Positions 1,423-52,970 are shown, numbered from the stretch's first letter. The stretch: 55,229 bases of DNA from an uncultured virus (IMG/VR IMGVR_UViG_3300012147_000007) (IMGVR_UViG_3300012147_000007:62001-117229); one strand, 5' to 3'. Numbers and translations: made by a program. Notes: a model not told the origin generated them from the sequence alone.

Positions 1423-2231
1423 TTTAAAATTTCTTTTTCTAAAATCGCTTCAATATTTTTCTTATCATAATATGGTATTCTTAAAAGCTTTTTATTTGTT
1501 TTTTTGCAAAATTCATTTTTTATAGAATCATTTTCTTTAATCTTTTTAAAGTTCGAATCACTCTTTTTTGAAATTGTGAATCTGGGCTCAAAATGCTGCT
1601 CTCCATCATATTCAATGCACATATCATAATTTGGAAGGTAAAAGTCAAATGGAAGGTAGTTAATATTCTTACATTCATCAAATTTCTTTTGAGATTCATA
1701 TAAAACCCTTTTGTTATCCAAGAATCTTTTGACCTCCCTTTCTCCGTGAGACAATCTACACCTTGGACACCCTTGTCCAGCTTTATGTTTCCCTGGAGAC
1801 TGTTCAAAAACGCCATGATTTTCACAAATTATTTTAACTTTAGTTTTATCACCAACATATTCAACTAATGAATAATTATAATTATCTCCATGTACTTCTG
1901 CAAACCTTTTTATAGCATCAGATTTATCGTCTGTTTTCTCTTCTTTTGCACAACAAGGACATCCTATACCTTTTAAATGATTCCATATACATTGCTCAAA
2001 AACTCCATGTTTTTTACAAATTATCTTAGCCTTATCTTTAACTTTTTCATACCAAACCAAAGAATAGTCATATCTGCCGCTATGGACTTCAATGGCTTTG
2101 TTTATATTTTTCTCAACCCTATCTTTTTTTGATTTTTCGTAACATATCTTACATCTGGTTCCATTGTTTGGGATAATTATCCTACCTCCATCTGGATGTA
2201 GTTTACACTTTCTTGTTCTAACTTTTTTCAT
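1395..2231 (-). mobile_element. Free-standing putative homing endonuclease: Zn-ribbon/HGxxYxYSLVxY repeats plus C-terminal Vsr/PD-(D/E)XK-like nuclease
   Basis: Two HxxxY(D/N)YSLVxY...IICxxHGVFEQ...H..G.GCPxC repeats; C-terminal PFDFYLP...IEYDGEQHF...ND..KN..C...LLRIPY; overlaps the uvrD start. Confidence 0.8.
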
Positions 2232-2306
2232 CTTTATCCTTTTCTATAAATAGGATAAAAGATTTTAAAAGAGCCGAAAAAACTTTTTAGTGCGCAACTA
2301 TGAAGG

Positions 2307-2351
2307 TTAATTTATAGGGTCAACCACTAAGTTTATCTTTTTCTTGGCCAT
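2307..2351 (-). pseudogene. Orphan N-terminal stub MAKKKINLVVDPIN*, possible former start of uvrD
   Basis: ATG 6 nt after the dnaQ-like stop; resembles the present UvrD start MGKKKEITID. Confidence 0.45.
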
Positions 2352-2357
2352 AATATA

Positions 2358-3197
2358 TTAAACGTTTTGAGCCTGAGCTTGTTTTGCTTTTTCTGTGATT
2401 TTTCTAAGCAACAACTTAGTGTCTCCAGGCATATCTGAAGCATTAACACACCAATCATAGTAACTTGCATCAGCAAGCATCATATCGCCAATAAGATTGT
2501 TTTTGTACTTACCAAAATTAAACACTGGTCTTCCGTCATTATTTAAAATGATATTACCACGTACATCAAGAGCTTTTTTGTTTCTATTGAAGTTGTCATG
2601 AAGAGTGTTTGGGTTTGTATTTATAAACCTTGCATCCTCAGGATAAGCGGCAACCATTCCATTAAAAATGTTTACAGACTCAATATTTGCTTGCTCTGAT
2701 TTAATTGGAGTATCCTCAAGAGTTTTTCCAGTATATCTTTCGATAGCTGCTCTGAAATCTCTTCTCTCCATATTGTGATATATTGAACTTAAGTCAATAA
2801 TGTTTCTACCAACAATTGTAAATTCTATACCAGCATTATTAAACTCTTCTGTTAAGAATTTAAGGTCAAAATTTGTAAGGCTAAATCCAGCAAAATCAGC
2901 ATCTCCTATAAACGAATATAAAGCTGCCGCAATTTCTTTGAAAGATTGGGCACCTGCAACATCTGCATCTGTCAAACCATTCAACAATGAAGCTTCGTCT
3001 GGAATTGACATTCCTGGATTCACCAACTTAGTAGCAATTTGAACTTGCCTTTCAGTGTCAACTTTAATTATAGAAATTTCTATGATTCTATCAGCTGGTT
3101 TGTCGCTGTCTCTTTTTTGAACTGGTTCTAATCCAGTTGTAGCAACCTTTAAAAATACCAAAGGTTTCTTAAGGTTTAATTTTAAATCTAAACTCAT
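2358..3197 (-). CDS. DNA polymerase III epsilon-like (DEDDh) protein of Bacteroidota type, catalytic residues degenerate
   Basis: LNLKKPLVF..TTG, DRIIEISIIK, VNPGMSIP, FKEIA, NFDL..L.EEF, IYH.ME.R, FNFGKYK, YYDW. ExoI DxE reads KVA; ExoIII HxAxxD is absent. Confidence 0.85.
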   Translation of the reverse strand: MSLDLKLNLKKPLVFLKVATTGLEPVQKRDSDKPADRIIEISIIKVDTERQVQIATKLVNPGMSIPDEASLLNGLTDADVAGAQSFKEIAAALYSFIGDADFAGFSLTNFDLKFLTEEFNNAGIEFTIVGRNIIDLSSIYHNMERRDFRAAIERYTGKTLEDTPIKSEQANIESVNIFNGMVAAYPEDARFINTNPNTLHDNFNRNKKALDVRGNIILNNDGRPVFNFGKYKNNLIGDMMLADASYYDWCVNASDMPGDTKLLLRKITEKAKQAQAQNV

Positions 3198-3225
3198 CTC
3201 TTCTAAATTTTTGTTATTTATAAAG

Positions 3226-3233
3226 CGAATATA
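3226..3233 (-). promoter_or_regulatory. Variant Bacteroidota -7 promoter box (TATATTCG)
   Basis: One mismatch to TAnnTTTG, about 30 nt upstream of the dnaQ-like start. Confidence 0.45.
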
Positions 3234-3242
3234 GTGAAAATA

Positions 3243-3506
3243 TTACACAAACTCACCATTGATGTAATTATTTCTTTCTTTTATTTTTTCATCACTCCAA
3301 TTTTCTTGTACAGATTTGACAAAATTAACCTCCGTTTTTGAGGTCCAAAACAACTTTTTATAATCACTATTATATGTTTCAAAAAAAAGAAGACCGTCCT
3401 CGTCTTCTTTTATTAAGATGAGCTCTTGGCTATGTGGAATAACTTCGCCATCACCCATCTCTTTGTTTTTAACTAATATATAATAATCTACATTAACTTC
3501 TTTCAT
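3243..3506 (-). CDS. Hypothetical protein (87 aa)
   Basis: TAATG-coupled to the sigma factor gene. Confidence 0.7.
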   Translation of the reverse strand: MKEVNVDYYILVKNKEMGDGEVIPHSQELILIKEDEDGLLFFETYNSDYKKLFWTSKTEVNFVKSVQENWSDEKIKERNNYINGEFV

Positions 3507-6215: not shown

Positions 6216-6257
6216 CTTTTCTATTTTTATAAAATATAAGAAACTCATTTTAATAAA

Positions 6258-6504
6258 TCAAATTTTCTCATAATGTTCTTTAAGAAACTTTACTATTTCT
6301 CTCGATGGCACCTGAACCGCTCCGTTATCAATAGCTCTCTTAATCACATCTCCTTTGACATCATAATGAGGCCTATTCTTACCTCGCTTATTTTTCAAAC
6401 CAGCATCTATTTAACCCTATCTCTTCTGCAAACTCATGCAAAGAAGAGATAGTATCAGCAACTAAGTGACACCACCCCTTCCTTGGAAAGTCTATTAAAA
6501 AAAA
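6258..6504 (-). pseudogene. DUF4031-family gene, frameshifted and with no clear start codon
   Basis: Hand translation: LIDFPRKGWCHLVADTISSLHEFAEEIGLNRCWFE, then a +1 shift in the A5 run at 6391-6395, then NKRGKNRPHYDV...RAIDNGAVQVPSREIV. Confidence 0.8.
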
Positions 6505-6512
6505 CTGGTTGA

Positions 6513-9074
6513 TTAGCTTCCACACATCAAACAATCATCTGGATTATCCAGGCTGCAGTTTAAGCCTTTTAAAGCCTCTTCTTCTGCGTCTGATAAGTCA
6601 ACAGTGGGTTTTTCTATAACTGCAACTTGAGAAACCTGAGGCACCACTGGAGCCATTACTTCAGGAATTACTACAACCTCTTCTAATTTTTCAGAAGATT
6701 CTGTGTCAACTCCAAGAGATTTTCTTGCTTCAGCTTTAGCATTGCTTCTTAAGTAGTACATACCAGTTTTAAGCCCTTTTTTCCAACCATAGAACAATGC
6801 TTTGTTTAGTTTTCCAGCATTTGCATCACGAATAAATAAATTCATTGATTGTGATTGACAGATAAAAGCACCTCTATCAGCCGACATATCAATCAAATTG
6901 CTTGCTTTCATTTCCCAAACAGTTTTGTAAACAGACTTAATTTGGTCTGGAATGTTGCTTATAGTTTGAATTGAGCCGCTATTTTGTATCAACTTAACTC
7001 TCATCTCATCACCCCAAAGGCCAAGGTTTATTAAGTCCTCAACCAAATGTCTGTTTACAACAACAAATTCTCCAGACAAGGTATTTCTCTTGTATAAATT
7101 GTTTGTGTAAGGTTCAAAACACTCATTGTTTCCAAGTATCTGAGCAGTAGAGGCAGTTGGCATAGGAGCAAGTAAAAGTGAATTACGAACACCATATTTC
7201 ATTACTGACTTTCTAAGTTTAGACCAATCCCACATTCCAGAAAGCGTTTCCTCATTCACGCCCCATAGGTTAAATTGAAATTGACCCTCAGAAAGAGGAG
7301 AGCCACTAAATGTTTTATATGCTCCATATGCATCTTCAAACTCTTCAGAATCTTGAAGAGTTAATTTCATTGCTTCTTTTCTAACTTTCTTAGATATATC
7401 GTTAGATGCTGTCATAGATGCAAAGTAAATGGTCTCAAAAATATCTTTATTTAACTTTTTAGCTTCATCTGATTCAAAAGGAATACCCATAAGAGCAAAC
7501 GTATCCGCAAGACCCTGCACTCCAATACCAATTGGCCTGTGTCTCATATTCGATTTCTTAGTTTCCTTAGTTGGATACCAATTAACATCAATAACCTGAT
7601 TAAGGTTTAGTGTAGTTTGATATGCGACATCATAAAGTTTTTCAAAATCATATTCTCTCAAATCCTTTTCTTTCGATTTAACTCTACCACTTGGTATTGT
7701 AACCATTTTTGGAAGCGCTATTGAAGCCAGGTTACATACAGCGGATTCATCTGGAGTCGAAACCTCTAAAATTTCTGTACACAAGTTAGAAGATTTGATT
7801 GTACCTATGTTTTTTTGATTTGACTTGTTGTTGGCCGCATCTTTATATAGAATGTAAGGAGTTCCAGTTTCAATCTGAGCCTCAAGTATTTTTGCCCACA
7901 ATTCCCTTGCTGGCATTGTTTTTCTAACTTTACCTTCTGATTCATATTTCTCATACAAAGCTGTAAACGCTTTATTGTCATGTGAATCAAAAACATCAGA
8001 AAGCCCTTGGCATTCATTTGGACACATTAAAGACCAGCTTTTATCTTCTTCAACTCTCTGCATAAACAAATCAGGAACCCAAAGTGCTAAAAATAAGTCT
8101 CTCGCCCTAAGCTCTTCTTTACCATGATTTTTTCTAAGGTCAATAAACTGTTCAACATCAGCATGCCATGGTTCAAGATAAATAGCAAAAGAGCCTTTTC
8201 TTTTACCACCTTGATTTATCCACTTAGCAACTTCATTGTATGTTTTAAGCATTGGAAGTATACCATCAGCATATCCTCCAGTACCTTTTATGTAAGAACC
8301 TTTTGCTCTAACATTATGGATATGAAGACCTATTCCTCCAGCCCACTTAGAAATGTTTGCAACATCCTTAACAGTATCAAACAAAGAATTAATATCGTCA
8401 CCTTTGTTTGCAACCAAGAAACATGAAGACAATTGAGGCTTCGGAGTTCCAGAGTTAAACAAAGTAGGTGTTGCGTGCGTAAATTGACCAGTTGACAATA
8501 ACTCATATGTATTTTGAACTTGTTCAAAGTTATCTCCCCAGATACCCAACGCAACCCTCATATACATGTGTTGAGGTGTTTCAGCTATGTTACCAGCTAT
8601 CTTCAATAAATAGGACCTCTCAAGAGTCTTAAATCCGAAATATTCGAAATCAAGGTCTCTATCATGAACAATCATTGATTCAATTTTTTTACCATTATTT
8701 TGAACCAGGTTATATAACTCTTCTGAAACAAGAGGCGCTGCCTCTCCAGTCTCTGGACTTATATAGTTATACAAATCTTCAACAGTCTCTTTGAAACTCT
8801 TCTTAGTTTCTTTTTTCAAAGAAGTCAATGCTATTCTCGCTGCTAATATAGAATAGTCTGGATGGACTCTTGTCATTGCCGCTGCAGTTTCTGCTGCAAG
8901 CTCATCAAGCTCTTTAGATGTTACTCCATCATAAACACCAGAAATAACCTTCTTGGCTATTTCCATATAATCAACATGCTCAGAATCTAATCCGTATGTT
9001 TGCTTTTTTATTCTTGCTGAAATTTTATCAAACTTCACCGTCTCTTCTGAGCCGTCTCTTTTTATTACTTTCAT
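6513..9074 (-). CDS. nrdA: Class Ia ribonucleotide reductase alpha subunit with ATP cone
   Basis: MKVIKRDG ATP cone, ATPTLFNSG, QLSSCFL, SNLCTEI, VCNLAS, APMPTAST, KTGMYYLR, C-terminal CLMC. Confidence 0.98.
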   Translation of the reverse strand: MKVIKRDGSEETVKFDKISARIKKQTYGLDSEHVDYMEIAKKVISGVYDGVTSKELDELAAETAAAMTRVHPDYSILAARIALTSLKKETKKSFKETVEDLYNYISPETGEAAPLVSEELYNLVQNNGKKIESMIVHDRDLDFEYFGFKTLERSYLLKIAGNIAETPQHMYMRVALGIWGDNFEQVQNTYELLSTGQFTHATPTLFNSGTPKPQLSSCFLVANKGDDINSLFDTVKDVANISKWAGGIGLHIHNVRAKGSYIKGTGGYADGILPMLKTYNEVAKWINQGGKRKGSFAIYLEPWHADVEQFIDLRKNHGKEELRARDLFLALWVPDLFMQRVEEDKSWSLMCPNECQGLSDVFDSHDNKAFTALYEKYESEGKVRKTMPARELWAKILEAQIETGTPYILYKDAANNKSNQKNIGTIKSSNLCTEILEVSTPDESAVCNLASIALPKMVTIPSGRVKSKEKDLREYDFEKLYDVAYQTTLNLNQVIDVNWYPTKETKKSNMRHRPIGIGVQGLADTFALMGIPFESDEAKKLNKDIFETIYFASMTASNDISKKVRKEAMKLTLQDSEEFEDAYGAYKTFSGSPLSEGQFQFNLWGVNEETLSGMWDWSKLRKSVMKYGVRNSLLLAPMPTASTAQILGNNECFEPYTNNLYKRNTLSGEFVVVNRHLVEDLINLGLWGDEMRVKLIQNSGSIQTISNIPDQIKSVYKTVWEMKASNLIDMSADRGAFICQSQSMNLFIRDANAGKLNKALFYGWKKGLKTGMYYLRSNAKAEARKSLGVDTESSEKLEEVVVIPEVMAPVVPQVSQVAVIEKPTVDLSDAEEEALKGLNCSLDNPDDCLMCGS

Positions 9075-11870: not shown

Positions 11871-12902
11871 TTATTTCAAACTTTCTTCGTACTCTTTCTC
11901 TTTGGCCATCAGATTATAGAATGGTCCAAAGAAATTATCTGTTCCAAAAAATTGATTGAATCCGTCTTTTGCAAACATCTTCATAGCATTTTCAATAGAA
12001 CCTTCATCATTGAATGTACTGACTCTGATTTTATCTACTTCATCAATAGCTTCTTGGTTTAAGAAAGGTTTTTTAAGGTTCATTAACTCTGCGTTTCTAT
12101 ACAAAGTATCTTGAGCTTGAATTATTTTCTCATAAGTTTTTAACTTCTTCTTTTTCTGCTTCTCATAACATTCTTCTACCAATCTACCATAAGTATACTT
12201 TTCAGTAATCATATCTGGAAAATGCTTAAGAAGAGTTGGCACACCGACTCCGTGAACTCCAGAAATACCATCTGAACTATCTCCTGAAAAACATTTTAAA
12301 AGCAAAGCATTGTCAACAACGTAGCCATACTTTTCTTTAAAGTTGGTCTTTGTGATTATATCCATACTGTCTGGATTAACCATTGACACATTATCTGATA
12401 TAAGTTGAAAGAAATCTTGGTCTCTACTGTAGATGTAGATATGTTCGTCAGGATTTTTGCAACCAAGTATATAATAAGCGATAAGGTCATCGGCCTCAAT
12501 ATAATCTAACTCCGCCTGCCTTACAAATAGTTCTTCCAGATAAACTTGAACGTCTATCTTTTGAGATAATAATTGAAAGTCTTCAGCATCTTTTTCATTG
12601 GTTATACCATGACCCTCAGTTGCAATGACTCTCGTCTCGTTCTCCCAATTCTTTTTTCTATTAGCCTTGTATGGCTTGTAGATGTTGTACCTTAGTTTTC
12701 CTGCGTGAAATCCGTCCCAAAAAACTATAACCCTGTCTGGCATCAATCTGTTTATAACAGATTTGGTACTATCTAAAAAACCAAAGGTGCCACCACAAAG
12801 CTTGCGATTGGCACCCATTAGGTCTTTTCTTTTATAAAAGTTCCTTTTAAGATTCCATTGCCCATCTATCAAAAGAGTTCTAAAATTTTTATTATTATCC
12901 AT
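11871..12902 (-). CDS. 5'-3' exonuclease / flap endonuclease (Pol I N-terminal or T4 RNase H type)
   Basis: LLIDG, VFWDG, YKPYKANR, EADDLIA, SRDQDFFQLI, GDSSDGISGVHGVG. Confidence 0.93.
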   Translation of the reverse strand: MDNNKNFRTLLIDGQWNLKRNFYKRKDLMGANRKLCGGTFGFLDSTKSVINRLMPDRVIVFWDGFHAGKLRYNIYKPYKANRKKNWENETRVIATEGHGITNEKDAEDFQLLSQKIDVQVYLEELFVRQAELDYIEADDLIAYYILGCKNPDEHIYIYSRDQDFFQLISDNVSMVNPDSMDIITKTNFKEKYGYVVDNALLLKCFSGDSSDGISGVHGVGVPTLLKHFPDMITEKYTYGRLVEECYEKQKKKKLKTYEKIIQAQDTLYRNAELMNLKKPFLNQEAIDEVDKIRVSTFNDEGSIENAMKMFAKDGFNQFFGTDNFFGPFYNLMAKEKEYEESLK

Positions 12903-12910
12903 TTTTTTAA

Positions 12911-13804
12911 TTATTTAAAAAATTTATTTATCCAACCATTACTTAAAGAGGCTTTATAAGCACTTTCGCTATTTTTTTGAAACTCTCCTTTTGTTTCAAA
13001 TTTTTCAGCTTCAACAAAACATCTTTCTATGGTCCAATATCCATTTGGTTTTTTTGTCTTCATGTGAGGACAAAGCTCATCAAGCCAATTATTTTTAAAC
13101 ATTGACATATATGCTCCTGGGCTTTTTTTGTACAACTCTTTCTTTGCTTTATACTTCAAGGCCTCTTTTTTGCACTTATCTTTCGTCCAATAACCTTTGT
13201 GTTTTTTGATGATTTTATTCATATGAACACAAACATCATCGAGCCATCCATTTTTTCTTGCAGAATTATATGCGCTACCGCTCTCTTTTGCGAATATAGT
13301 TCTTTTTTTATAATTTATAGACTCTTCTATACACTTTTCTTTTGTCCACTTCAAATTTCCTCCACCAATAGCTCCAGCATCTGCTAAATTTAAAACATTA
13401 TATCCATTTTTTTTATAAAACTCGATTTTATCTCCCTCCAAAATTTTAGCATCTTCAACGTCTATATAATCTGAATAAGATAATATTGGATTCATTCCAG
13501 TTTTTTTTATGTACTTAAAAACCCTACTTCTACCATCTCTCCTGTGTTTGTTGTCTCTTTCTTCAATATTATAAGTTAACCCTACATATACAGATTTATC
13601 GCCAAATTCATATACATAAACAAGTCTTCTGTATTTATTGCCAACAACTGACATGTGAGAACAAATTTCATTCAACCAACCATTTTTATTAGAAGCGTTA
13701 TAAGCTCCTCCTGAGTTTGTTTTAAATTTAGACCTTAATTTATACTTCAACGCCTCTTTTTCACATTTTTCTTTTGTCCAATAATTTCTGTTTTTTCTAT
13801 TCAT
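12911..13804 (-). mobile_element. Free-standing GIY-YIG homing endonuclease with WTxExC..EA.KY repeats
   Basis: LVYVYEF..KSVYVGLT....R...H; four WT(K/I)(E/D)(K/R)C...GAY/SAY...NGW repeats. Confidence 0.85.
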
Positions 13805-13805: not shown

Positions 13806-13865
13806 TTATCTTTTTATTATAAATACCAATAAAAAATTTACAAAATATATAATAAACGTTTTCAT
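13806..13865 (-). pseudogene. Orphan stub MKTFIIYF..., possible former start of the 5'-3' exonuclease
   Basis: KTFIIY aligns with RTLLID of the downstream nuclease; stops 1 nt before the GIY-YIG ATG. Confidence 0.4.
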
Positions 13866-38155: not shown

Positions 38156-38612
38156 AAGCTTTTTTAGCCATACCATCAACCATTCTTATGAATTTTGTAG
38201 TATTGCGTTTTACATGAAAGAAATTGACTGTATGGTTTTCAACCACTTCAATTAATCTTTCCCAAGCCTGTTGATTTTCTACAGGTTTTTTTTTGTTGTT
38301 AAGCCACCCGTTAGCTACCCATTTATCATACCACCTATCCTTCAGGCAATTTATAACATAAGCACTGTCTGAGTAAAGATTTATCATTTCACTGCCTTTT
38401 CCATTCAGAGCCTCAAACGCTTGAGCTACAGCAATTATTTCCATTTCTTGATTTGTTGTTCCTGCAACGTGCCCAGAACCTTGAAGTGTTATCTCCATAT
38501 TTTTGCCTGGTTCATTTTCTAAAATTAGAAAAGCCCATCCACCTTTTCCTTCTGCAGTTCCATCTTCTTGCCTGTTATTGTCTTTGCAGGCTCCATCTGT
38601 GTATATATTCAT
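38130..38612 (-). CDS. rnhA: Ribonuclease HI
   Basis: IYTDGAC, GGWAF, TTNQEMEI, YSDSAYV, W..NGW....KPVEN...W..L, FHVK, VD.MA. Confidence 0.92.
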   Translation of the reverse strand: MNIYTDGACKDNNRQEDGTAEGKGGWAFLILENEPGKNMEITLQGSGHVAGTTNQEMEIIAVAQAFEALNGKGSEMINLYSDSAYVINCLKDRWYDKWVANGWLNNKKKPVENQQAWERLIEVVENHTVNFFHVKRNTTKFIRMVDGMAKKASKTDTNQE

Positions 38613-39012
38613 TTTCTGTATTTTTCAAAAGGTTTAACTGGTTTTAAATCTTCTCCTATCGTTTTCGCCTTTACATTCTTAACAGCTGGCAATTTTATTT
38701 CTGACCAATCAATTGGCTTATGCTCCAATTTAGGCATCTCTACAAAAACACCATCTTTAAGCTCATAATCGTTTCCGCCAATTACCCAACAGCTTTCATA
38801 ATCAGTTGCCTGAACCCCGCTCTTAGTTACATATTTTAAAAACCAACCATGAACAAAATCATGACCTGAGCCAATTTCATACAAATCCTCTCCTTTAAAT
38901 TTAAAGTCAGATTTTTTGTCTTCTGTAAGATTTGAAATTGTTTCTTCTAACTCTTTTTTTAAATCTTCTCCTGTTACATGAACAAGTTCGAACAAACCCT
39001 TTTTTTACTCAT
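38609..39012 (-). CDS. Hypothetical protein with apparent 1-nt deletion near the start
   Basis: ATG at 39012 joins the main frame (MSKKKGLFELVHV) only if the A7 run at 39000-39006 is A8; otherwise TTG at 38995. Confidence 0.65.
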
Positions 39013-39017: not shown

Positions 39018-39620
39018 TTATCTATTTGATGGTACATAATTTTCATTTATAGTACCATCGTCATTTAACTTACAATGCACTACTCCGTGGCAATTTGAAC
39101 AAAGTAAAATACATTTATTTAATTCAGGCAATAAATTAATCCAAGATTTTTTTCTCATCTTATTCCAATTCATTTCTTTTTCTTCTGGCTTTTCGTGGTG
39201 AAATTCAAAACTTGCATAATGTCCTTTAAACCCACAATCTACACAACGCCCACCCAAATGCTCTATTGCCCTTTTTTTAAAAACCCTTGCTCTTTCAATA
39301 TCGTGCTTTCCACTACAGTCTCTACATCTACCATAGACTTTCAAACTATTGGGTGAAAAATCATCCTTTATTCTATATGTCTCACAATCATAACACCATT
39401 GATGCTCATCTGGACATTCTCCTCTTTTTTCTAAATTTTCTCTATACTCTAAAATCTTCTTAGCGTGCTCTGGATTTTCCTTTTTAATTCTATTTAATCT
39501 CCTCTCTTTCTCTGCTAATCTAAAACACACTTTACAATCCAACCTCCAACTTCTATTATGCTTATGATACTCTTCTAAATCCTTTACCTCATTACAAGTT
39601 CTGCATTTTCTTTCTTCCAT
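39018..39620 (-). mobile_element. Free-standing HNH endonuclease with Zn ribbons
   Basis: Multiple CxxC; LGGRCVDCG...FEFHH...ELNKCILLCSNCH..VH. Confidence 0.82.
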
Positions 39621-39676
39621 TTTTTATTTATAAATAGAAAGAAATATGTTTTACCATAGTTTGTTTGATAACAGGC

Positions 39677-40108
39677 TTATTCACCCTTTTCTAAAAATGA
39701 TATATCAAGAGTCCATTTTTTCTTACTTCTTTCTTCCCAAATATTAAACACTTCCTCAATATAATCATCTGCCTGCTTATCAGTTAAACAATTTATTTTC
39801 ATCATATGTGCTTTAATTTCTTTTTCTTTTCCAGAAATTCTTGCATATCCAAAATGCTTTGTAGAATGACAATTTGGACAAAGCGCAATTAATCCCTTAA
39901 GAGTCTGCTCACAAGACTCATCATCATAATTCCAAATTTCGTGACACTCCACGGGATGCTTCGGGCCCTTACCGCTGCAAACTTCACATTTATATTCTGC
40001 TTTCTTATAGCAGTCTTTTCTAAGGACATCCCACTCTGCTTGTGATACATTGGAGCGCACGTTATTATAAAAAGAAGATGCAGGCACAAGTTCTATAGTT
40101 AAAATCAT
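39677..40108 (-). CDS. Conserved HNH-like (LTIELVP family) protein
   Basis: LTIELVP..NVRS...W..LR...CEVC...ECHEIW.Y...LIALCPNCH..KHFG; ATG at 40108. Confidence 0.82.
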   Translation of the reverse strand: MILTIELVPASSFYNNVRSNVSQAEWDVLRKDCYKKAEYKCEVCSGKGPKHPVECHEIWNYDDESCEQTLKGLIALCPNCHSTKHFGYARISGKEKEIKAHMMKINCLTDKQADDYIEEVFNIWEERSKKKWTLDISFLEKGE

Positions 40109-40110
40109 AA

Positions 40111-41079
40111 TCAATTAAATTTATCCCATTTATGTGTACAAATAAACTTATTTTCCTTAATAAATCCAATTAAATAATCAATAACAATTGGATTATATAT
40201 TCTAAGTCTAAAATAGGAATCTTTTTGTTTTAAAGCTTTTTTACTCAAAGTTACATTAAAAATATCTTCTAAGCGTTTTATCCAATATTTTAATATTAAC
40301 TTCCAATTTTCATGAGAAGTAATAGTTATACATCTCGAATTTTTCTTGCTTAAATATAAACTACCATCTCCATCAATGAATCCTATTAAAAAACTTAAAA
40401 AATTTTCATCTGACATTTTATTAAAAACACTCAAAGAAGGCGGGAAATATGTTTTAGTTTTTTCTCCCTTTTTATAATTTATATCATACTTTTTATTTAT
40501 CAAAGGAATTACTTTTGAATCTTTTAAATAACATATAGCGCTCCCATTACTAACTGTATCAACTCCTAATATATTTACTTTTTTCACTTCATCGTATAGT
40601 TTAATATTTTTACAACCAATATAATTAGCAAAACCAATAACAACTTCCTTATTTTTCATACACTGATTCAGTTGTATCTTTTTATTTGTAAAATATCCAT
40701 CAGCAAATAATAGACCTATGTAATAATATGTTTTAACACTCTCATTCAATAGAATTTCAACATTAGAGTCTCTCATTGTTGAATATTGGTATTCTGCTCT
40801 TTTTAATTTTAATTTTTTAGCTTTTGCTAAAATAGAGCTCCAACTTCTGTTTTCCAAAAGTTTCAATAATTTTTCAGAAGAAGAGTTTGAATAGTATTTT
40901 ATTATAATATTCTCTTCCATTTCTGACCATAAATTTTCTTCTGTTATTCCAAGTGCTTTTTTTCTATTTTTTACAGAGGGAATTGTTCTTCCAACTAATT
41001 CAGCTAAATACTTAATTGGAGATTCTATATTGTTTTTTAAAATAAAATCCTCCTGCTCTGTCCATCTTTTGTTTTTCAT
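40111..41079 (-). mobile_element. Free-standing double-motif LAGLIDADG homing endonuclease with N-terminal WT/WSxxE repeats
   Basis: YYIGLLFADG and FLIGFIDGDGS; N-terminal WTEQED and WSEMEE. Confidence 0.87.
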
Positions 41080-41080
41080 A

Positions 41081-41158
41081 TTACATGTATTTTATTATAA
41101 ATACATGAAAATTTTTAAACCAAGCCGTCTGTGGTACTAATTCAATTGTTAGCTTCAT
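41081..41158 (-). pseudogene. Orphan N-terminal stub MKLTIELVPQTAWFKN... of the gene at 39677-40108
   Basis: LTIELVP is identical to the downstream gene's N-terminus; start overlaps the dnaE-C stop; ends 1 nt before the LAGLIDADG ATG. Confidence 0.88.
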
Positions 41159-43481: not shown

Positions 43482-44557
43482 AATTTACTTGCTTCTATTT
43501 GACTTTTTATATATACTAAAACATTTTCTTTATTATCCTTCCAGTCTTTTTCCCAAATTTCTATATAACTACAATTAATAACACTTATAATTTCATTCTT
43601 TCTTTTTCTATCATCTCTCCAAATCTCAGATGCCAATCTTTTTTTGTTTTTATGATAAAAATCATGACTATAAATCATTGGATTACAATGCCAATAATCA
43701 CCCATAATTTCAATAGCTATATTGTGTTCATTATTATAATAATCAAGTTTATAAAATTTACTTTTGTTTACAATTAAAACTTTTTGACCAAATTCAGAAT
43801 TATAATGATAAGAATCGTTTAATCCTAAATTTTGTAATTCTAAAATAATTTCCCTCTCCAAGTTAGAGGATTCTCCTAAGTTTTTATTTGTTTTTTTAGC
43901 ATTTTCCATTTGCCACTCTTTATCCATAAACAAATTATCTACTCCAAACTTATCCTGCATAGTCATTGTTACAGCTGAATAATGACAACCACGCTCCAAG
44001 AACCAACTCACACCATACCTATCATCCATGGTCTTAGAAATCTTATCCTTAATCTTCTTATATTGAATTGGTGCCTTAAGACCAGTTGTTCCAAGATTTT
44101 TATTCAAAGACTTTTCATATTGACTTCTATACTCTTTAGTCTTATAATAAAGTGATTTATAATCTTTCTCAGATAATACGTGTCCATTAGACCAGAATTT
44201 AATACCCTTTCTTGATGGGTGTAGGTCTATTAGCTCATCTTTCTCGGAAAACTTATTGTACATTTTAACCTTTGACTCAGTTAATGAATAATCCTGGTTT
44301 CCACACTTAATAAGAACAGCACTGTGTCCTCTTGGTCCTTTTCCAAAATAGCAATCTTCAACAATTCCGATAAAACTTTCTTTATTGTACAATTCTTTTC
44401 CAATTAAATTTTCAATAGAAACCGATAATTTACTTTTATATGGCCATATTTCTATTTCGTTATTATCAGCTTTTTTAAAGTCAAAAAACTCACACAACCC
44501 AGCAACTAAATCACTCTGACCATCGAACTCAATATTTAACAACTCTTCTTTTTTCAT
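43478..44557 (-). mobile_element. Vsr-like (EDxHD-type) homing endonuclease between the split-intein halves
   Basis: RYGV/KFGV repeats, SNLEREI, LDYY...IAIEIMGDYWHCNP, D..RK, IEIWEKDW; likely ATG at 44557; ATGA-coupled to dnaE-C. Confidence 0.87.
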
Positions 44558-44614
44558 AATTATAAAATCTGTATCTATAAATATAGATAAAAACTTCAAA
44601 CGATATTTGTATTT

Positions 44615-46816
44615 TTAAAACACAAACAATTGGTCGCTCTCCATAATACCATCTACACGAACTTCAATTCTCTCGCCATCCCTAAAAACAGGAACAATAT
44701 GGCACCCAGTCAACTCAACTATAGCTCCATCTTCAGTTTCAATTTCATAAACATTCTCGTTTTCCTTAAGCTCTCTCTCGTGCTTTTGAACCAAGGTTCC
44801 AAGTCCGTGTTCTGTCTGAACTGGGTCTCCAACCTCTACTTCAACGATGTTCTTATAAGAGCCATCTTTCATCATGACATTGCAGTTTGATGTTAAACAG
44901 TTTCTTTCTGGATTTAGGAAACGCTCAAAATAAAGATTAAACCTTATTGGGTCAATCTTTGTAATATCAAGACACCACGACAATAGACTTCCTGCTGCAG
45001 AACCTCTGGCTGGGCCAATGTCATGACCTTCGTTTCTGTAGAAATTAATAATCTCCCAGTTTACAAGAAAGTAATCAAGCATCTTCTTTGATTCAATAAT
45101 ACTAATCTCATAATTAAGACGGTCAACATACTCATTAACCTTTTCATCGGTCATCTCAACGATTCCATTTTTCTTATATATCTCAACTTTTTGCTTTAAC
45201 TTAATAAACGCAAGTTTTACAATAATCTCCTCTGGCTTATCTGTGCCAAAATATTCTATTATTTTTTCAGTTGGCTCATATCTTGGATATTTCTCAGTAC
45301 CAGTATCAAATTCAAAATTACACCTATCAGCTATAATGTTTGTATTTTTCATACAAAGTTCAAGAAACTTTTCAGGATACTTAAATCCATACTTTTCGTT
45401 CATTTCTCTATAGTCATCGCTATTGAAGTAGTATAACTCTCTGTTTTCTTTCAGAGAACAATAGGCAAGCATACGATGTTGCTTAATAGATGTAACTACA
45501 TCTTGAAGCTTTGAATCCTCTCTTCTTGGATAGTAGGTGTCATTGCTCATTACTGGAAGCAATTTATACTTACTCATCATTTTAATCAAGAAGTTGTTAT
45601 ACTGCTTCTGAGTGGCGAACTTACTAAACTTAAACTCCACTATCAAATCTTCTCCAAACTCGCTCCTAAGCATGTTAAGATAGTTCTCTGCGTCAATAAC
45701 CTTTCCTTTAAGAACCAGGTTTGCTAATTTACTATCAAGACCTGAGGTAGATATTATTAAACCCTCTTTATATTTCAAAAGCCACTCTGTAGTTATTCTT
45801 GATTCTTTCTTAAATAACCCCTCTGTGTTTGCGAGGTATATCAAATGATTCAGATTTCTATATCCAATTTCATTTTTTATGAAAATCTTTATTTTATAAT
45901 TATCTCCCTCAAGCTCTCTGTCTTCAAATTTTCCAATATTGTCATTCAAGAAAGACTCGACACCAAAAACTGGTTTAATCCCTTTTGACTTACATTTATT
46001 GAAGAATTCAAATGAACCAGATAATGTTGAGTTATCTGTTATTGCCATTGAGGTGTGGCCATACTCTTTTGCAAGCTTAATATACTCGTCTACAGAACCA
46101 GCTCCATCAAGAATAGAGTGAAATGTATGGAGACCAAGTGGAGTTACTCGGATTGAATCGCCCGCTTGCATAGGTTTCTCTTCTGCAACTTTAGTAAGAG
46201 AATCCATTAAATCTTCTGCGCCCTCTTCTTCTTTGAATCCAAGGATGCCTATTCTTTGAAGTTCGAAAAAACATTTTGCAAGCGCAGTAACATCCGCAAG
46301 TGCATCGTGAGCATCTTCGAATCCTTTGTCAAATAATTTTTGGTGAAGTTCTGTTTGAGAAGGAAATTTCATCCCACTCCTACCTCTTTTGTTTGGAATT
46401 GCCACGAAGTCAGTTGTGAGCTTCATGGTGTCAATGTGATTTATGTCTGGAATGCAGTTGTACATTCCCTCTCTAAGGAATTCACAGCCTGTTACATTTT
46501 CATCAAAGGAAATGTTGTGAGCAATAAGATGCTTATTGTTCTTTACAGCTTCTGAAAACTTTTCAAGCGCCTGCCTCAAAGGAACTCCATCCTCTTTAGC
46601 TCTCTCGTTTGTAATCCTATGAATCGCTATTGCTTCATCAGGAATCCTAAACCCTTGAGGTTTAATAATTAAATTCTGAGAATCTGTCTCTACACCATTC
46701 GCATCAAAGATTTTCCAAGCAATCTGAACCATTCTTGGCCAGTTGTTAAAATCAGTAATTGGTGCGCTAAAATTCTTTGCCTTACCAGTTGTTTCGGTAT
46801 CAAATACTATATACAT
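44615..46816 (-). CDS. dnaE: DNA polymerase III alpha, N-terminal half: DEDDh exonuclease + PHP + start of polymerase, ending in split N-intein
   Basis: FDTETTG, AHNISFD, AHDALADV; LHTFHSILDG, AITD, KPVFGVE; RLNYE..II, GPARGSAAGSL, DPI.F.L.FERFLNPERN. Confidence 0.95.
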   Translation of the reverse strand: MYIVFDTETTGKAKNFSAPITDFNNWPRMVQIAWKIFDANGVETDSQNLIIKPQGFRIPDEAIAIHRITNERAKEDGVPLRQALEKFSEAVKNNKHLIAHNISFDENVTGCEFLREGMYNCIPDINHIDTMKLTTDFVAIPNKRGRSGMKFPSQTELHQKLFDKGFEDAHDALADVTALAKCFFELQRIGILGFKEEEGAEDLMDSLTKVAEEKPMQAGDSIRVTPLGLHTFHSILDGAGSVDEYIKLAKEYGHTSMAITDNSTLSGSFEFFNKCKSKGIKPVFGVESFLNDNIGKFEDRELEGDNYKIKIFIKNEIGYRNLNHLIYLANTEGLFKKESRITTEWLLKYKEGLIISTSGLDSKLANLVLKGKVIDAENYLNMLRSEFGEDLIVEFKFSKFATQKQYNNFLIKMMSKYKLLPVMSNDTYYPRREDSKLQDVVTSIKQHRMLAYCSLKENRELYYFNSDDYREMNEKYGFKYPEKFLELCMKNTNIIADRCNFEFDTGTEKYPRYEPTEKIIEYFGTDKPEEIIVKLAFIKLKQKVEIYKKNGIVEMTDEKVNEYVDRLNYEISIIESKKMLDYFLVNWEIINFYRNEGHDIGPARGSAAGSLLSWCLDITKIDPIRFNLYFERFLNPERNCLTSNCNVMMKDGSYKNIVEVEVGDPVQTEHGLGTLVQKHERELKENENVYEIETEDGAIVELTGCHIVPVFRDGERIEVRVDGIMESDQLFVF
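44618..44899 (-). mobile_element. Split intein N-fragment (IntN, 94 aa)
   Basis: Begins CLTSNCNVMMKDGSYKNI.EV.VGD.V (block A); block B VYEIETEDG..VELTGCHIVPV; ends at a stop codon. Confidence 0.93.
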
Positions 46817-50950: not shown

Positions 50951-50998
50951 ACTTATTTATTTTATAATAAATAGGGGTAAAAAATGAGTTCGAGATAA

Positions 50999-51307
50999 TT
51001 AAATACCTATGTATATGTTTGTGCTAACTTCTTCATCAAGCTTGACAGATACGTTATTTGCTACAAAAACTACTGATGTAATGTTGTTTTTTGCGTACAA
51101 TTGATAGTCTCCAATTGTACTTGCTGACCAAGATGCTGTAAACACACCTCTCGCTGCATCAGATAACGCAACGTTTATGGTAGCTCCAGTGTACGCAACC
51201 CCGTCTCTATACATTGTTGTATCAAATGTTGCGCCAGCGACAGGATTGTTATCTAAGTCGAGAGACACTATTTGTTCATACACGGTTTGCCCTGTTCCAA
51301 TTATCAT
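50999..51307 (-). CDS. Small Ig-like beta-sandwich protein, probable virion protein
   Basis: T/V/S-rich; DLDNNPVAGA, GVFTASW, GDYQL; TATTTATA upstream. Confidence 0.65.
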   Translation of the reverse strand: MIIGTGQTVYEQIVSLDLDNNPVAGATFDTTMYRDGVAYTGATINVALSDAARGVFTASWSASTIGDYQLYAKNNITSVVFVANNVSVKLDEEVSTNIYIGI

Positions 51308-51340
51308 ACTAAGTCTTTTATATAAATAGAACTAAAAAGA

Positions 51341-52279
51341 TTATTCTTCCACCTCTTTGAATACATTCGACCTGGTAATCTTATATTTTTTAACATTTCC
51401 AGATTTTGCATTAATATAACCTTCTTTCCACCACTTAAGCATTTGCTCTTTATCAAATATCAAAGAATTCTCTGTCAATCCATATGGTGTGTAATAAATA
51501 TTTATTGAGATTTCTCTCCCATGTGACTCAAGCTTATTAAGGTCAATATTATCCTTAGCTATCTTTCTCATCAAAATCTCTATCAGCCTAACAAAGTATT
51601 GAAATAAATTATTAATCATAGCTCTCTTAACAACACCAAAGCCTTCTGGGCTTAACACAATTACATCAATTTCAGTTGCCCCATTCTCAATAGCTACTTG
51701 AATTGGTATATGTTGATGAATTGCTCCATCAGCATATTGGTTCCCGTCTTTTTCTAAAATAGATGTGTATATTGGAGCATTACAAGATGCCCAGAGCCAA
51801 TCAACGAAATCCTCATACGAATTATCGTTTGAAGATTTGAACTCAGCCCTTTTGTCTGTAAGGTTTGAAACCACTGCGATAACTTCTTTATCGGATTTAT
51901 AAAGTCTTTCAAAATGTTTTTCAGTAAAATGTTTCTTTATTAAATTCCTTAAGTTATCAGTTTCTCCAATAGTTTTTTTGGATGTAATTAACCTTTTGAT
52001 TGCATTCCACCTTCTAACACTGCCATCTTCGTTAAAGGGGTTTATTGAGAATATATCTTCAGTTGTAATGCTTGTATATCCCTCTTTTAGTATGCTTAAT
52101 TCTCGTATAGATGACAATGGAGCAAGAAGACTTCCTGTTGATGTTCCCACGTAAAGGTCATAATCTTTGTCTTGGTCTTCGAGAAGATGTTGTATTACTC
52201 CACCAGCCCAAGCGCCTTTTGCCCCTCCACCAGAAATACACAAAGCTCGTTTTCTTTTTTTTACCCCTTTACTTCCCAT
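51341..52279 (-). CDS. Patatin-like phospholipase
   Basis: ISGGGAKGAWAGG, GTSTG nucleophile elbow, ASCNAP, YADGA. Confidence 0.92.
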   Translation of the reverse strand: MGSKGVKKRKRALCISGGGAKGAWAGGVIQHLLEDQDKDYDLYVGTSTGSLLAPLSSIRELSILKEGYTSITTEDIFSINPFNEDGSVRRWNAIKRLITSKKTIGETDNLRNLIKKHFTEKHFERLYKSDKEVIAVVSNLTDKRAEFKSSNDNSYEDFVDWLWASCNAPIYTSILEKDGNQYADGAIHQHIPIQVAIENGATEIDVIVLSPEGFGVVKRAMINNLFQYFVRLIEILMRKIAKDNIDLNKLESHGREISINIYYTPYGLTENSLIFDKEQMLKWWKEGYINAKSGNVKKYKITRSNVFKEVEE

Positions 52280-52887
52280 ATATATCCTTTACACTTAAAT
52301 GTCCCTCTTCTTATACAATTTTGGATTGCTGATGTATTAACGCCTATATTTCTTGCAGCCTCTCCATAGCTATTAAATTCTTTTATCAAACTCCCTTCTA
52401 AATCGTATTGATTGACTTTTTTAGAATTTACTGGTATTTGTCCTTTTTTAAATTCAGTTTTAGGACTTAACCTTTCTCCTTTTTTTATTCTTGTCTCTTT
52501 TCCGATTTCATTTCCCTTTTTAAAAGTTGTTTTGTTTGACTTAATAGAACCAATAACACCTTTATTCCATGGTACATTTCCCTTATCTACGCCATCTCCA
52601 CCAGAAGTCTCATTGGTCAAATTAAATCCCCAGCACTTAAACTGTTCAATCCAATAACTCTCCCAAAACCTCCAATCTTCTTCTAAAATCTCGTCAATAA
52701 CTTCTATAGCTGGTTCTAAATCTCTTTTTAGAAGACTTTTAATCCAAGCCTTCTTGTGTGATGTAGTTGATTTTTTGCTTTCATTTATATGTCTATTTAA
52801 TCTTTTTGCAATATTTGTAGTTTTTCCAACATACTTAACATCATTTGTTAATGGGTCAATCAACACATATATAATTACAGTCCTCAT
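52261..52887 (-). mobile_element. Free-standing GIY-YIG homing endonuclease with NUMOD-type C-terminal domains
   Basis: IIYVLIDP...KYVGKT....RL..H, E.YWI, LTN.T.GGDG, PWNKG, FKKG repeats, VNQYDLEG..IKEF.S..EAA...GYIW. Confidence 0.9.
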
Positions 52888-52889
52888 AA

Positions 52890-52970
52890 CTATAAATAGT
52901 TAAAATTTTTGCCCCCACCACTAATTACAAAATTTTTTAAGTTTTCCTGGTATGTTTTTTCTTCTGCCAT
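52890..52970 (-). pseudogene. Orphan stub MAEEKTYQENLKNFVISGGGK..., relic patatin N-terminus
   Basis: FVISGGGK versus LCISGGGAK; DNA GGTGGGGGCAAAA versus GGTGGAGGGGCAAAA; stops 2 nt before the GIY-YIG ATG. Confidence 0.6.

What the first reader, a model, noticed from the sequence alone, without database searches (positions are those of the whole stretch)
2231..52970. Homing endonucleases of unrelated families share one insertion architecture: orphan 5' stub, endonuclease, replacement N-terminus
Seen: five free-standing endonucleases (Vsr-like 1395, GIY-YIG 12911, HNH 39018, LAGLIDADG 40111, GIY-YIG 52261) are each preceded by a 14-26 aa mini-ORF that starts where the next operon gene would start. 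Each mini-ORF resembles the N-terminus of the gene now downstream of the endonuclease. The match is strong for the LAGLIDADG case, moderate for patatin, and weak for UvrD, the flap nuclease and the 38609 gene. In three cases the stub stops 1-2 nt before the endonuclease ATG. Inference: these are splice-free cassettes that cut the 5' end of a conserved gene and carry a recoded, cleavage-resistant start, so the host gene survives without an intron or intein. The leftover stub may couple translation. Known parallels are T4 intronless homing and fungal mitochondrial endonucleases that bring a replacement gene segment. I do not know of this 5'-stub form described as a repeated phage pattern.
Basis: partly seen in the sequence, partly recalled or inferred. 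Interest (0 to 1): 0.88.

Follow-up and report, generated by a model that had tools for sequence, protein, structure and literature searches.

The report
Homing endonucleases that replace gene starts
In this uncultured lake phage, four selfish DNA-cutting-enzyme genes of different families each sit a few codons inside an ordinary gene, leaving the old gene start as a dead stub and bringing a new start, so the gene survives without any splicing.

Summary

- **Confirmed sites.** Related phages without the endonuclease carry the stub sequence joined directly to the gene body. This is seen at the HNH-like gene (LAGLIDADG site), patatin, UvrD and, less firmly, the flap nuclease.
- **Patatin series.** Relatives show a full range: 5 empty sites, 2 intact endonucleases sharing one stub junction, and 2 decayed endonuclease relics that still keep the stub.
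- **Recent spread.** In other lake samples the LAGLIDADG gene plus the new gene start is 99-100% identical, while the flanks differ by 6-13%.
- **HNH case fails.** Its mini-ORF is absent in a relative with the same endonuclease. The downstream gene has its family's normal start.
- **Not introns.** Rfam finds no intron, even at E ≤ 1.
- **Own promoter.** Each endonuclease has a TATTTATA promoter-like box. That box supplies the stub's 3' codons and some of its stop codons, so translational coupling is not needed.

Cleavage at the stub/body junction and immunity of the recoded copy remain inferred.

This is a 5'-end mirror of the mobile endonuclease ORFs of fungal mitochondria. Five searches of the held library (two on phage insertions, two on known parallels, one not limited to phage) showed no phage description, judged from titles and abstract openings. 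This scan has noted the same design in other genomes.

The parts
2307..2351 (-). Stub 1: orphan native start of UvrD (14 codons plus stop)
   Evidence: It starts 6 nt after the exonuclease stop. It shares the spacing and 11 identical first bases with the UvrD start of the syntenic relative L047. Ten syntenic loci start M/V-A-K/R-K/R at that place.
1395..2231 (-). Endonuclease 1: DUF723 zinc fingers plus a DUF559-like nuclease domain
   Evidence: Pfam DUF723 and PHROG families annotated as homing or HNH endonuclease. Its C-terminal part resembles the window's DUF559 protein, E 2e-5.
2245..2252 (-). TATTTATA promoter-like box of endonuclease 1
   Evidence: It lies 13 nt before the ATG.
1366..1422 (-). 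Replacement start of UvrD (MGKKKEITIDRGQVDLFEG); the gene continues to base 1 and beyond the window
   Evidence: Its ATG lies 28 nt inside the end of the endonuclease ORF. Pfam UvrD-helicase.
13806..13865 (-). Stub 2: probable orphan start of the flap nuclease (first 7 codons, MKTFIIY), then promoter sequence read as codons
   Evidence: L103 has a homologous GIY-YIG gene preceded by the stub MKTFLID. That stub scores 15-30 against 9 flap-nuclease N-termini; 8 of the 9 reach or exceed the best of 45 other N-termini. The window stub and the L103 stub share 15 of 21 bases by my own count of the printed sequences.
12911..13804 (-). Endonuclease 2: GIY-YIG-like
   Evidence: Pfam GIY-YIG, E 9e-4, below the curated cut-off. 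PHROG 20046, unnamed. A homologue sits at the same site in L103.
13818..13825 (-). TATTTATA box of endonuclease 2
11871..12902 (-). Flap nuclease with an altered start (MDNNKNF then RTLLIDGQW)
   Evidence: Pfam 5_3_exonuc_N. Relatives start M-R/K-T/V-L-L-V-D-G.
41081..41158 (-). Stub 4: orphan native start of the HNH-like gene. The first 16 codons are native; the last 9 codons are promoter sequence.
   Evidence: 39 of the first 48 bases match the empty-site relative L100, against 8 of the next 30. It has the same overlap with the polymerase III alpha stop as in L004 and L100.
40111..41079 (-). Endonuclease 4: LAGLIDADG-like
   Evidence: Pfam LAGLIDADG_3, E 1.8e-4, just below the cut-off. PHROG 4645, endonuclease. 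Absent from L003, L004 and L100.
41096..41103 (-). TATTTATA box of endonuclease 4
39677..40108 (-). HNH-like gene (PHROG 5200) with a recoded replacement of codons 1-16 (40061-40108)
   Evidence: The replacement matches L100 at 28 of the first 48 bases but 23 of the next 30. PHROG 5200, E 1.5e-54.
52890..52970 (-). Stub 5: orphan, decayed native start of patatin gene 2, reaching the GGG-x-K codons
   Evidence: It follows the same terminator hairpin and aligns base for base with the starts of the empty-site relatives L018, L020, L022, L026 and L027, apart from internal deletions.
52261..52887 (-). Endonuclease 5: GIY-YIG plus NUMOD1
   Evidence: Pfam. A 65%-identical homologue with the same stub junction is in L111. 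A relic of its last 41 residues is in L021.
52891..52898 (-). TATTTATA box of endonuclease 5; its last bases give the stub's TAG stop
51341..52279 (-). Patatin gene 2 with a replacement start (52217-52279). Its ATG lies inside the endonuclease's last codons.
   Evidence: Pfam Patatin. The ATG sits within the endonuclease's ..Y/C-I/K-W codons in the window, L111 and L021.
39018..39620 (-). Endonuclease 3: HNH type, lying between genes. It does NOT share the architecture.
   Evidence: PHROG 2255, HNH. The same gene sits at the same place in L100, but the mini-ORF's ATG is absent there. It is missing together with the 128-aa gene in a contig of run X4.
39628..39657 (-). Chance mini-ORF (MVKHISFYL) in the spacer and promoter before endonuclease 3
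   Evidence: Rank 21 of 46. Not conserved in L100.
38609..39012 (-). 128-aa gene with its family's normal start (ATG at 39012), broken by a run of 7 A where relatives need 8
   Evidence: Nine homologues start MSK..; two (P0002, P0004) read MSKKKGLFELV as the window would with 8 A. The same 7 A occur in L092 and L093.

Best explanation
Four of the five endonuclease genes are homing cassettes inserted 7 to about 20 codons inside a conserved phage gene, without an intron or intein. The target genes are UvrD, the flap nuclease, an HNH-like gene and patatin.

Each cassette carries three things:
- its own promoter-like TATTTATA box;
- the endonuclease ORF;
- a diverged second copy of the target gene's first codons with a new ATG. 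This copy abuts or overlaps the endonuclease stop.

The gene's original first codons stay upstream at the native start position as an orphan stub, which decays.

Proposed working, which is inferred: the enzyme cuts endonuclease-free alleles near the point where stub and gene body are contiguous. That point lies in conserved motif codons such as GGG-x-K of patatin and D-G-x-W of the flap nuclease. Break repair during mixed infection then copies the cassette in. The stub plus the upstream gene serve as left homology, and the gene body serves as right homology. The resident allele escapes cutting because the site is split and its left half is respelled. The gene stays functional because the cassette supplies a start.

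The fifth endonuclease (HNH, 39018-39620) is an ordinary endonuclease lying between genes.
For: **LAGLIDADG site.**
- Three syntenic relatives (L003, L004, L100) have no endonuclease and an unbroken gene. In L004 and L100 the start overlaps the polymerase III alpha stop exactly as the stub does.
- The stub matches L100 at 39 of the first 48 bases, then 8 of 30. The replacement copy matches at 28 of 48, then 23 of 30. The break is therefore after codon 16.
- 10 of 12 non-window loci show the contiguous family N-terminus.

**Patatin site.** I examined 14 non-redundant loci out of the 26 returned.
- 5 are empty sites with terminator plus ATGGCAGAAGA.. running into the gene.
- 2 keep the stub plus a relic of the endonuclease C-terminus. 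L021 has a 41-aa match scoring 95 (0 of 1000 shuffles of a 31-residue part of it reached its own score of 72); L017 is reached by 3 of 1000 shuffles.
- 6 have a short native start in other gene contexts.
- 1 is window-like.
- L111 carries a 65%-identical endonuclease with the same stub junction behind a different upstream gene.

**UvrD site.** The window has TAA, 6 nt, then ATGGCCAAGAA.. as in L047. Ten syntenic loci start UvrD there.

**Flap nuclease site.** L103 has a homologous endonuclease plus a stub, and that stub resembles flap-nuclease starts.

**Recent spread**.

| Run | Stretch | Differences |
|---|---|---|
| X6 | 40446-40917 | 0 in 481 |
| X6 | 40017-40373 | 4 in 357 |
| X4 | 40412-41162 | 7 in 751 |
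| X6 flank | 39815-39895 | 5 in 81 |
| X6 flank | 41218-41282 | 8 in 65 |
| X4 flank | 41154-41282 | 12 in 129 |

In X4, at least 39 differences lie within 39674-39974.

**No intron.** Rfam gives 0 hits at gathering score and none at E ≤ 1.

**Promoter box.** There are 17 copies against 5.6 expected. Of the 13 copies on the - strand, 12 lie 3-20 nt before a gene's ATG.

**Sixth case.** A further example at a PTH2 gene lies outside the window.
Against: - No cleavage site, target specificity or immunity has been measured.
- At patatin, the copy downstream of the endonuclease is nearly the same as in empty-site relatives across the junction codons. Respelling there may not protect the gene.
- The flap-nuclease stub is only 7 codons long. 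On the window alone it is not above chance: rank 17 of 46. In the 5 syntenic empty-site relatives whose spacers were printed (L095-L099), the gene starts 50-65 nt after the terminator; in the window the stub starts 14 nt after it.
- The UvrD stub's homology is clear for only about 20 bases.
- One of the five cases fails outright.
- The window and L111 share a junction although their endonucleases are only 65% identical. Old vertical inheritance of one scar explains this as well as repeated homing does.
- Sliding identity along patatin showed no clear recombination tract.
Confidence: 0.77

Rival explanations
1. The stubs are one-off scars of faulty repair. An endonuclease lay between genes, in front of a diverged homologue in a donor phage. 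It was copied in once with a non-homologous left joint. Since then the arrangement has simply been inherited, and the stub-plus-cassette does not home as a unit.
For: The window and L111 share the identical patatin junction although their endonucleases are only 65% identical, which suggests an old event. Short-start patatins in other gene contexts (L019, L029, L023) look like the donor type. The first 90 alignment columns of the window's patatin are closest to L029 (78%), which is the most distant relative elsewhere.
Against: The LAGLIDADG cassette, including the replacement start, is 99-100% identical between strains whose flanks differ by 6-13%. Different endonuclease states occur at one site: intact, relic and empty. 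This rival describes the origin of the cassettes and is compatible with later homing.
Confidence: 0.15
2. The mini-ORFs are chance open frames in A+T-rich spacer and promoter DNA, and have no relation to the downstream genes.
For: This is true for the HNH case. It is also true for the 3' parts of all the stubs, which are promoter sequence. The flap-nuclease and UvrD stubs are not significant on the window alone.
Against: There is base-level homology to the gene starts of empty-site relatives at the same position for LAGLIDADG, patatin and UvrD. Ranks are 1 of 46, with 0 and 8 of 2000 shuffles.
Confidence: 0.03
3. The endonucleases lie in group I introns, or in a translational bypass element. 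The stub would then be a first exon joined to the gene body at the RNA or ribosome level.
For: Phage endonucleases are often encoded in introns, and T4 gene 60 uses a bypass next to mobA (abstract of 10.1101/2022.08.31.505936).
Against: No Rfam intron match appears even at E ≤ 1. The downstream genes have their own ATG and repeat the stub's codons, so joining would duplicate residues. The stubs carry deletions, frame changes and early stops in relatives.
Confidence: 0.02
4. The stub is kept for a function. It could be a short leader whose termination next to the endonuclease ATG couples endonuclease translation to the host gene's transcript. It could also be an operator half-site beside the endonuclease promoter, as for I-TevI.
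For: Stub stops lie 1, 1 and 2 nt before the ATG in three window cases. In L103 the stop overlaps the ATG, and in L111 it lies 2 nt before it. The T4 review describes operator sites that resemble homing sites and overlap the late promoters of intron endonucleases (PMC2988022, passages read).
Against: The stop codons come from the promoter box itself, or from A+T-rich spacer in which other frames also stop near the ATG. The stub's peptide sequence is not conserved. The UvrD stub stops 75 nt upstream.
Confidence: 0.1

Closest known systems
Mobile endonuclease ORFs of fungal mitochondria that bring a replacement gene end. The Allomyces macrogynus atp6 case is recalled from memory, not read here. 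Partial C-terminal duplications of atp6 and cob with endonuclease ORFs between the gene and its duplicate in Endoconidiophora resinifera come from PMC6279837 (passages read).
   Same: The endonuclease gene sits between two copies of a gene terminus. One copy is in use and the other is left as a fragment. No splicing is needed.
   Different: In mitochondria the 3' (C-terminal) end is duplicated. Here the 5' end is duplicated, so the cassette must also supply a start codon and sits behind the native start and promoter region. The host is a phage, and four nuclease families show the design in one genome.
Free-standing Seg and Mob endonucleases of T4-type phages, known as 'intronless homing' (PMC2988022, passages read)
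   Same: The endonuclease genes lie outside introns and inteins and are variably present between related phages. They spread by break repair with co-conversion of flanks, and some have their own late promoters.
   Different: According to the review, T4 free-standing enzymes lie between genes and cut hundreds to thousands of bases away from their own insertion site. Here the insertion lies inside the target gene's first codons and leaves a stub plus a duplicate.
MobA plus the 50-nt bypass cassette in T4 topoisomerase gene 60/39 (abstract of 10.1101/2022.08.31.505936 read; the 2011 PNAS paper is recalled only)
   Same: A mobile endonuclease cassette inserts repeatedly at one place inside a coding gene. 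It keeps the gene working by a trick other than splicing.
   Different: That cassette splits the gene mid-way and relies on ribosomal bypassing. Here the gene is restarted from a duplicated, respelled 5' end.
Endonuclease-split 'genes in pieces', such as Aeromonas phage Aeh1 nrdA split by mobE (mentioned in PMC10448857, passage read), and 'fractured genes' with split inteins (PMC2677866, abstract opening seen in a listing)
   Same: The endonuclease is inserted inside a coding region and the host function is retained without an intron. The window itself holds a split-intein case in polymerase III alpha.
   Different: In those cases both pieces are needed and nothing is duplicated. Here the upstream piece is a dispensable, decaying stub.

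Membership tests
Free-standing homing endonuclease gene | The ORF encodes a nuclease domain of a homing endonuclease family | tested here: met
   Pfam and PHROG matches for all five. Two of them (12911-13804 GIY-YIG and 40111-41079 LAGLIDADG_3) score below Pfam's curated cut-off.
Free-standing homing endonuclease gene | Not embedded in an intron or intein | tested here: met
   No Rfam intron at gathering score or at E ≤ 1. No Hint domain flanks these five.
Free-standing homing endonuclease gene | Present or absent at the same locus among related genomes | tested here: met
   Empty sites are found for all five. For the HNH gene it is absent from L003, L004 and L101 and from the X4 contig.
Free-standing homing endonuclease gene | Site-specific cleavage of the endonuclease-free allele and biased inheritance in mixed infection | not testable with these tools
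   This needs enzyme assays or phage crosses. The 99-100% identical cassette in diverged strains is indirect support only.
Group I intron-encoded endonuclease | Ribozyme core around the ORF | tested here: not met
   no intron family matched.
Group I intron-encoded endonuclease | Removing the insert restores one continuous reading frame | tested here: not met
   The downstream genes start with their own ATG and repeat the stub codons.
Mitochondrial-type mobile ORF that makes a hybrid gene | The endonuclease ORF is flanked by a used copy and a leftover fragment of the same gene terminus | tested here: met
   Four sites in the window.
Mitochondrial-type mobile ORF that makes a hybrid gene | [quoted passage not shown] | tested here: not met
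   All four duplicates are 5' ends.
Mitochondrial-type mobile ORF that makes a hybrid gene | The used copy is of foreign origin | tested here: inconclusive
   The replacement is more diverged than the stub at the LAGLIDADG site, 28 against 39 of 48 bases. The first 90 columns of patatin are closest to the otherwise most distant L029. No donor was identified.
MobA / gene 60 bypass cassette | Coding gap with matched take-off and landing codons | not tested
   No formal search was made. The stubs end in stops and the downstream parts have their own starts, so bypassing is not required.

The most novel reading that the evidence does not exclude
Start-replacement homing cassettes may be a general third way, beside introns and inteins, for endonuclease genes to live inside coding sequence. 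On this reading, unrelated nuclease families in phages have converged on inserting just behind a gene's start, bringing a promoter and a respelled start. The leftover stub would mark the homing site to the base. Together with the adjacent promoter it may also act as an operator for the enzyme.
Probability: 0.5. Interest if true: 0.75.

Novelty: new variant of a known kind. Interest (0 to 1): 0.62.

Why it matters
- **Another way to keep the host gene whole.** Homing endonucleases are thought to need an intron, an intein or a gap between genes to avoid killing their host gene. Here four families in one phage use a different solution: they replace the gene's start.
- **Annotation.** The short upstream ORFs are dead stubs, and the downstream genes are hybrids.
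- **Target prediction.** The stubs give base-level predictions of four new endonuclease target sites, which can be tested directly.
- **Life cycle in view.** The empty, filled and decayed states found in relatives show the endonuclease life cycle at one locus.

Tried and rejected
- **Phage collection.** Megablast of 25 kb against the phage collection found nothing.
- **Single-protein scans.** Scans of viral contigs with the flap nuclease, the 128-aa protein and the LAGLIDADG protein returned only the window's own phage. Relatives were then reached through records found with other genes. Five of those records held no flap nuclease.
- **Metagenome scan.** A 30-base stretch of the LAGLIDADG gene found one contig, identical to the window. 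The diverged strains seen in runs X4 and X6 could therefore not be read base by base.
- **Recombination tract.** Sliding identity along patatin gave no clear tract.
- **128-aa protein.** It is unrelated to the 161-aa gene at the same position in L003.
- **L102.** It has a different zinc-finger ORF in front of the flap nuclease and no recognisable stub.
- **Solved structures.** The sequence search with endonuclease 1 gave no match.
- **RNA.** No RNA holder was listed among the sequencing runs, so expression was not examined.
- **Translational coupling.** I considered coupling from stub stop to endonuclease start, but other frames also stop near the ATG, so I gave it little weight.
- **Literature.** Five searches were run. 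Searches asked about phage insertions, about the known parallels, and one search was not limited to phage. I judged them from titles and abstract openings, and opened four papers. None showed a description of 5' stub plus replacement start in phages. Subscription journals are not in that library.

Full report
**Setting**

The window is bases 62001-117229 of a 117-kb virus record. Nearly all genes lie on the - strand. The same sequence occurs in IMG/VR contigs of up to 195 kb and in a 364-kb metagenome contig. Lake and salt-lake metagenome runs also hold it.

- 1395-2231 has DUF723 zinc fingers and a C-terminal domain related to the window's DUF559 protein (E 2e-5).
- 12911-13804 is weakly GIY-YIG.
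- 39018-39620 matches PHROG families annotated as HNH endonuclease.
- 40111-41079 is weakly LAGLIDADG_3.
- 52261-52887 is GIY-YIG plus NUMOD1.

**The observation**

Mini-ORFs precede all five endonucleases: 14, 19, 9 (18 from a GTG), 25 and 26 codons. On the window alone, only two resemble the downstream gene beyond chance.
- The LAGLIDADG stub ranks 1 of 46 gene starts, and 0 of 2000 shuffles reach its score.
- The patatin stub ranks 1 of 46, with 8 of 2000.
- UvrD ranks 4 of 46, with 54 of 2000.
- The flap nuclease ranks 17 of 46.
- The 38609 gene ranks 21-24 of 46.

**LAGLIDADG site**

Three syntenic relatives lack the endonuclease (L003, L004, L100). In L004 and L100 the HNH-like gene starts by overlapping the polymerase III alpha stop, exactly where the window's stub starts.

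The stub matches L100 at 39 of the first 48 bases and then at 8 of the next 30. The copy behind the endonuclease matches at only 28 of the first 48 bases but at 23 of the next 30. The native gene was therefore interrupted after codon 16, and the working gene carries a respelled copy of those 16 codons. Ten of the 12 non-window loci show the family N-terminus contiguous with the body.

**Patatin site**

Of 26 loci I examined 14. I dropped duplicates of the window's phage, 5'-truncated hits, and repeats of L029 and L038.
- Five (L018, L020, L022, L026, L027) have the terminator hairpin followed at once by ATG(G/T)CAGAAGA.., reading MAED..KKPFKGK.AL.ISGGG without interruption.
- The window's stub aligns with this base for base, apart from internal deletions, up to the GGG-x-K codons.
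- L021 keeps the stub and the last 41 residues of the same endonuclease (alignment score 95; a 31-residue part scored 72, reached by 0 of 1000 shuffles).
- L017 keeps the stub fused to a NUMOD-like relic, reached by 3 of 1000 shuffles.
- Six loci have a short native start in other gene contexts, which is a possible donor type.
- A third phage, L111, has a 65%-identical endonuclease with the same stub junction behind a different upstream gene. Its stub is partly out of frame.

In the window, L111 and L021, the patatin ATG lies inside the endonuclease's last conserved codons. The new start is therefore part of the cassette.

**UvrD site**

The window reads TAA, six bases, then ATGGCCAAGAA. The 72%-identical relative L047 reads TAA, six bases, then ATGGCCAAGAA, running on into UvrD. 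I examined 32 of the 48 loci. Ten of them have the exonuclease gene followed within 3-32 bases by a UvrD that starts M/V-A-K/R-K/R. Homology of the stub is clear for only about 20 bases.

**Flap nuclease site**

I examined eight relatives.
- Six have no endonuclease (L095-L099, L104).
- L102 has an unrelated zinc-finger ORF and no recognisable stub.
- L103 has a homologous, apparently frame-broken GIY-YIG gene preceded by the stub MKTFLID.

The L103 stub scores 15-30 against nine flap-nuclease starts. Eight of the nine reach or exceed the best of 45 other gene starts. The window's MKTFIIY shares 5 of 7 residues with it. I rate this case probable, not proven. In L095-L099 the gene starts 50-65 bases after the terminator, whereas the window's stub starts 14 bases after it.

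**HNH site: rejected**

Nine homologues of the 128-aa protein start MSK.., and two of them (P0002, P0004) read MSKKKGLFELV. That is the sequence directly behind the endonuclease in the window, so nothing was replaced. L100 has the same endonuclease at the same place, but the mini-ORF's ATG reads CAG there.

**Mobility**

Contigs from other lake samples carry the LAGLIDADG cassette almost unchanged in diverged strains.
- In X6 there are 0 differences in 481 bases (40446-40917) and 4 in 357 (40017-40373).
- In X4 there are 7 in 751 (40412-41162).
- The flanks differ by 5 in 81, 8 in 65 and 12 in 129.
- In X4, at least 39 differences lie within 39674-39974.

The near-identical tract therefore includes the endonuclease, the replacement start and roughly the first 30-45 codons of the gene. 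That is what homing with co-conversion would leave.

**Promoter box and introns**

TATTTATA occurs 17 times against 5.6 expected. Of the 13 copies on the - strand, 12 lie 3-20 bases before a gene's ATG. These include all five endonucleases, the endonuclease between the split-intein halves, and several large ORFs of the presumed virion block, whose functions I did not check. The box also precedes the endonucleases in L100, L103 and L111.

The 3' part of each stub is this promoter sequence read as codons, and in two cases the box supplies the stop. Rfam finds no intron even at E ≤ 1.

**Mechanism**

- Shown: the architecture, the empty sites, the decay series, and the near-identical cassette in diverged strains.
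- Inferred: cleavage at the junction, immunity through respelling, use of the box as a promoter, and the origin from a donor in which the endonuclease lay in front of a diverged homologue.

At patatin the downstream copy is almost unchanged across the junction codons, so immunity by respelling is doubtful there.

**Comparison and novelty**

The closest parallel is the endonuclease-linked duplication of gene 3' ends in fungal mitochondria (PMC6279837, passages read; the Allomyces atp6 case is recalled only). T4-type free-standing endonucleases differ because they lie between genes and cut far from their insertion site (PMC2988022, passages read). The mobA bypass cassette keeps its host gene by another trick (abstract of 10.1101/2022.08.31.505936).

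Five library searches, read as titles and abstract openings with four papers opened, showed no phage description of the 5' form. Only asked about phage insertions directly. Earlier notes of this scan report the same design in at least eight other genomes. I did not test those notes.

**Beyond the window**

The other 62 kb of the record holds at least seven more endonuclease-like ORFs. One of them, at G000 45350-46462, shows a sixth stub and duplicate at a PTH2 gene: the alignment score is 85, against 26-49 for the other eight ORFs tried.

Noticed in passing
window 41142-46816 (- strand): DNA polymerase III alpha is split into two genes. The first ends in a Hint/intein N-part. The second begins with an intein C-part, ending in HN then S by eye. 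An endonuclease-like ORF (43478-44557), with the same TATTTATA box, lies between them. Relatives L003 and L004 have one unbroken gene. This looks like a 'fractured gene' with a split intein.
   Followed up: partly
window 39000-39012 (- strand): The 128-aa gene behind the HNH endonuclease has ATG AGT followed by 7 A, where homologues need 8 to read MSKKKGLFELV. The frame is therefore broken right after the start. The same 7 A occur in two other contigs (L092, L093). A -1 slip or polymerase stutter on the A run is possible.
   Followed up: partly
window 38615-39643: A contig of run X4 (also X6, with a short side) joins 38615 to 39643 with 65 other bases between. It therefore lacks the HNH endonuclease and the 128-aa gene together. 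The two may move as one unit.
   Followed up: partly
window 41154-41170: In runs X4 and X6 about 192 extra bases lie between the end of polymerase III alpha and the LAGLIDADG stub. The window-like tract there starts a few bases before the stub's ATG. This may be a nested or second insertion scar. The sequence could not be read.
   Followed up: no
G000:C1:44853-46570 (L154 4853-6570), outside the window: This is a sixth case. A DUF723/CapR-type endonuclease (45350-46462) is preceded by a stub reading ..SKLRIVTIRDIHPGAQLVEN. It is followed by a PTH2 peptidyl-tRNA hydrolase gene reading KLRIVVTRDLHPGAQIAQS. That gene's ATG is again followed by an A run that is one base short of the frame.
   Followed up: partly
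G000:C1:1-62000 (L152-L154): There are at least seven more endonuclease-like ORFs (GIY-YIG at 12231, 37887 and 48136; weak HNH at 5249, 6316 and 34489; DUF723 at 45350) and 28 tRNA genes, many of them in pairs. The ORF at 6316-6774 is flanked by two tRNA-Asn(GTT) genes (6232-6305 and 6828-6900). This may be the whole-gene version of the same duplication.
   Followed up: partly
window 51341-52279 and 53026-54066: Two patatin-like phospholipase genes lie in tandem. Only the second one carries the endonuclease. Some relatives have another gene in place of the first (L018, L020, L111).
   Followed up: partly
L141 (IMG/VR contig), 111-3329: A 39%-identical relative of endonuclease 1 lies between two ORFs that look by eye like halves of a family B DNA polymerase. 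This would be a gene split without duplication.
   Followed up: no
L102 309-1493 (reverse strand of the locus): A different zinc-finger ORF of about 380 aa, with a TATTTATA box, occupies the site in front of the flap nuclease in another phage. It has no recognisable stub.
   Followed up: partly
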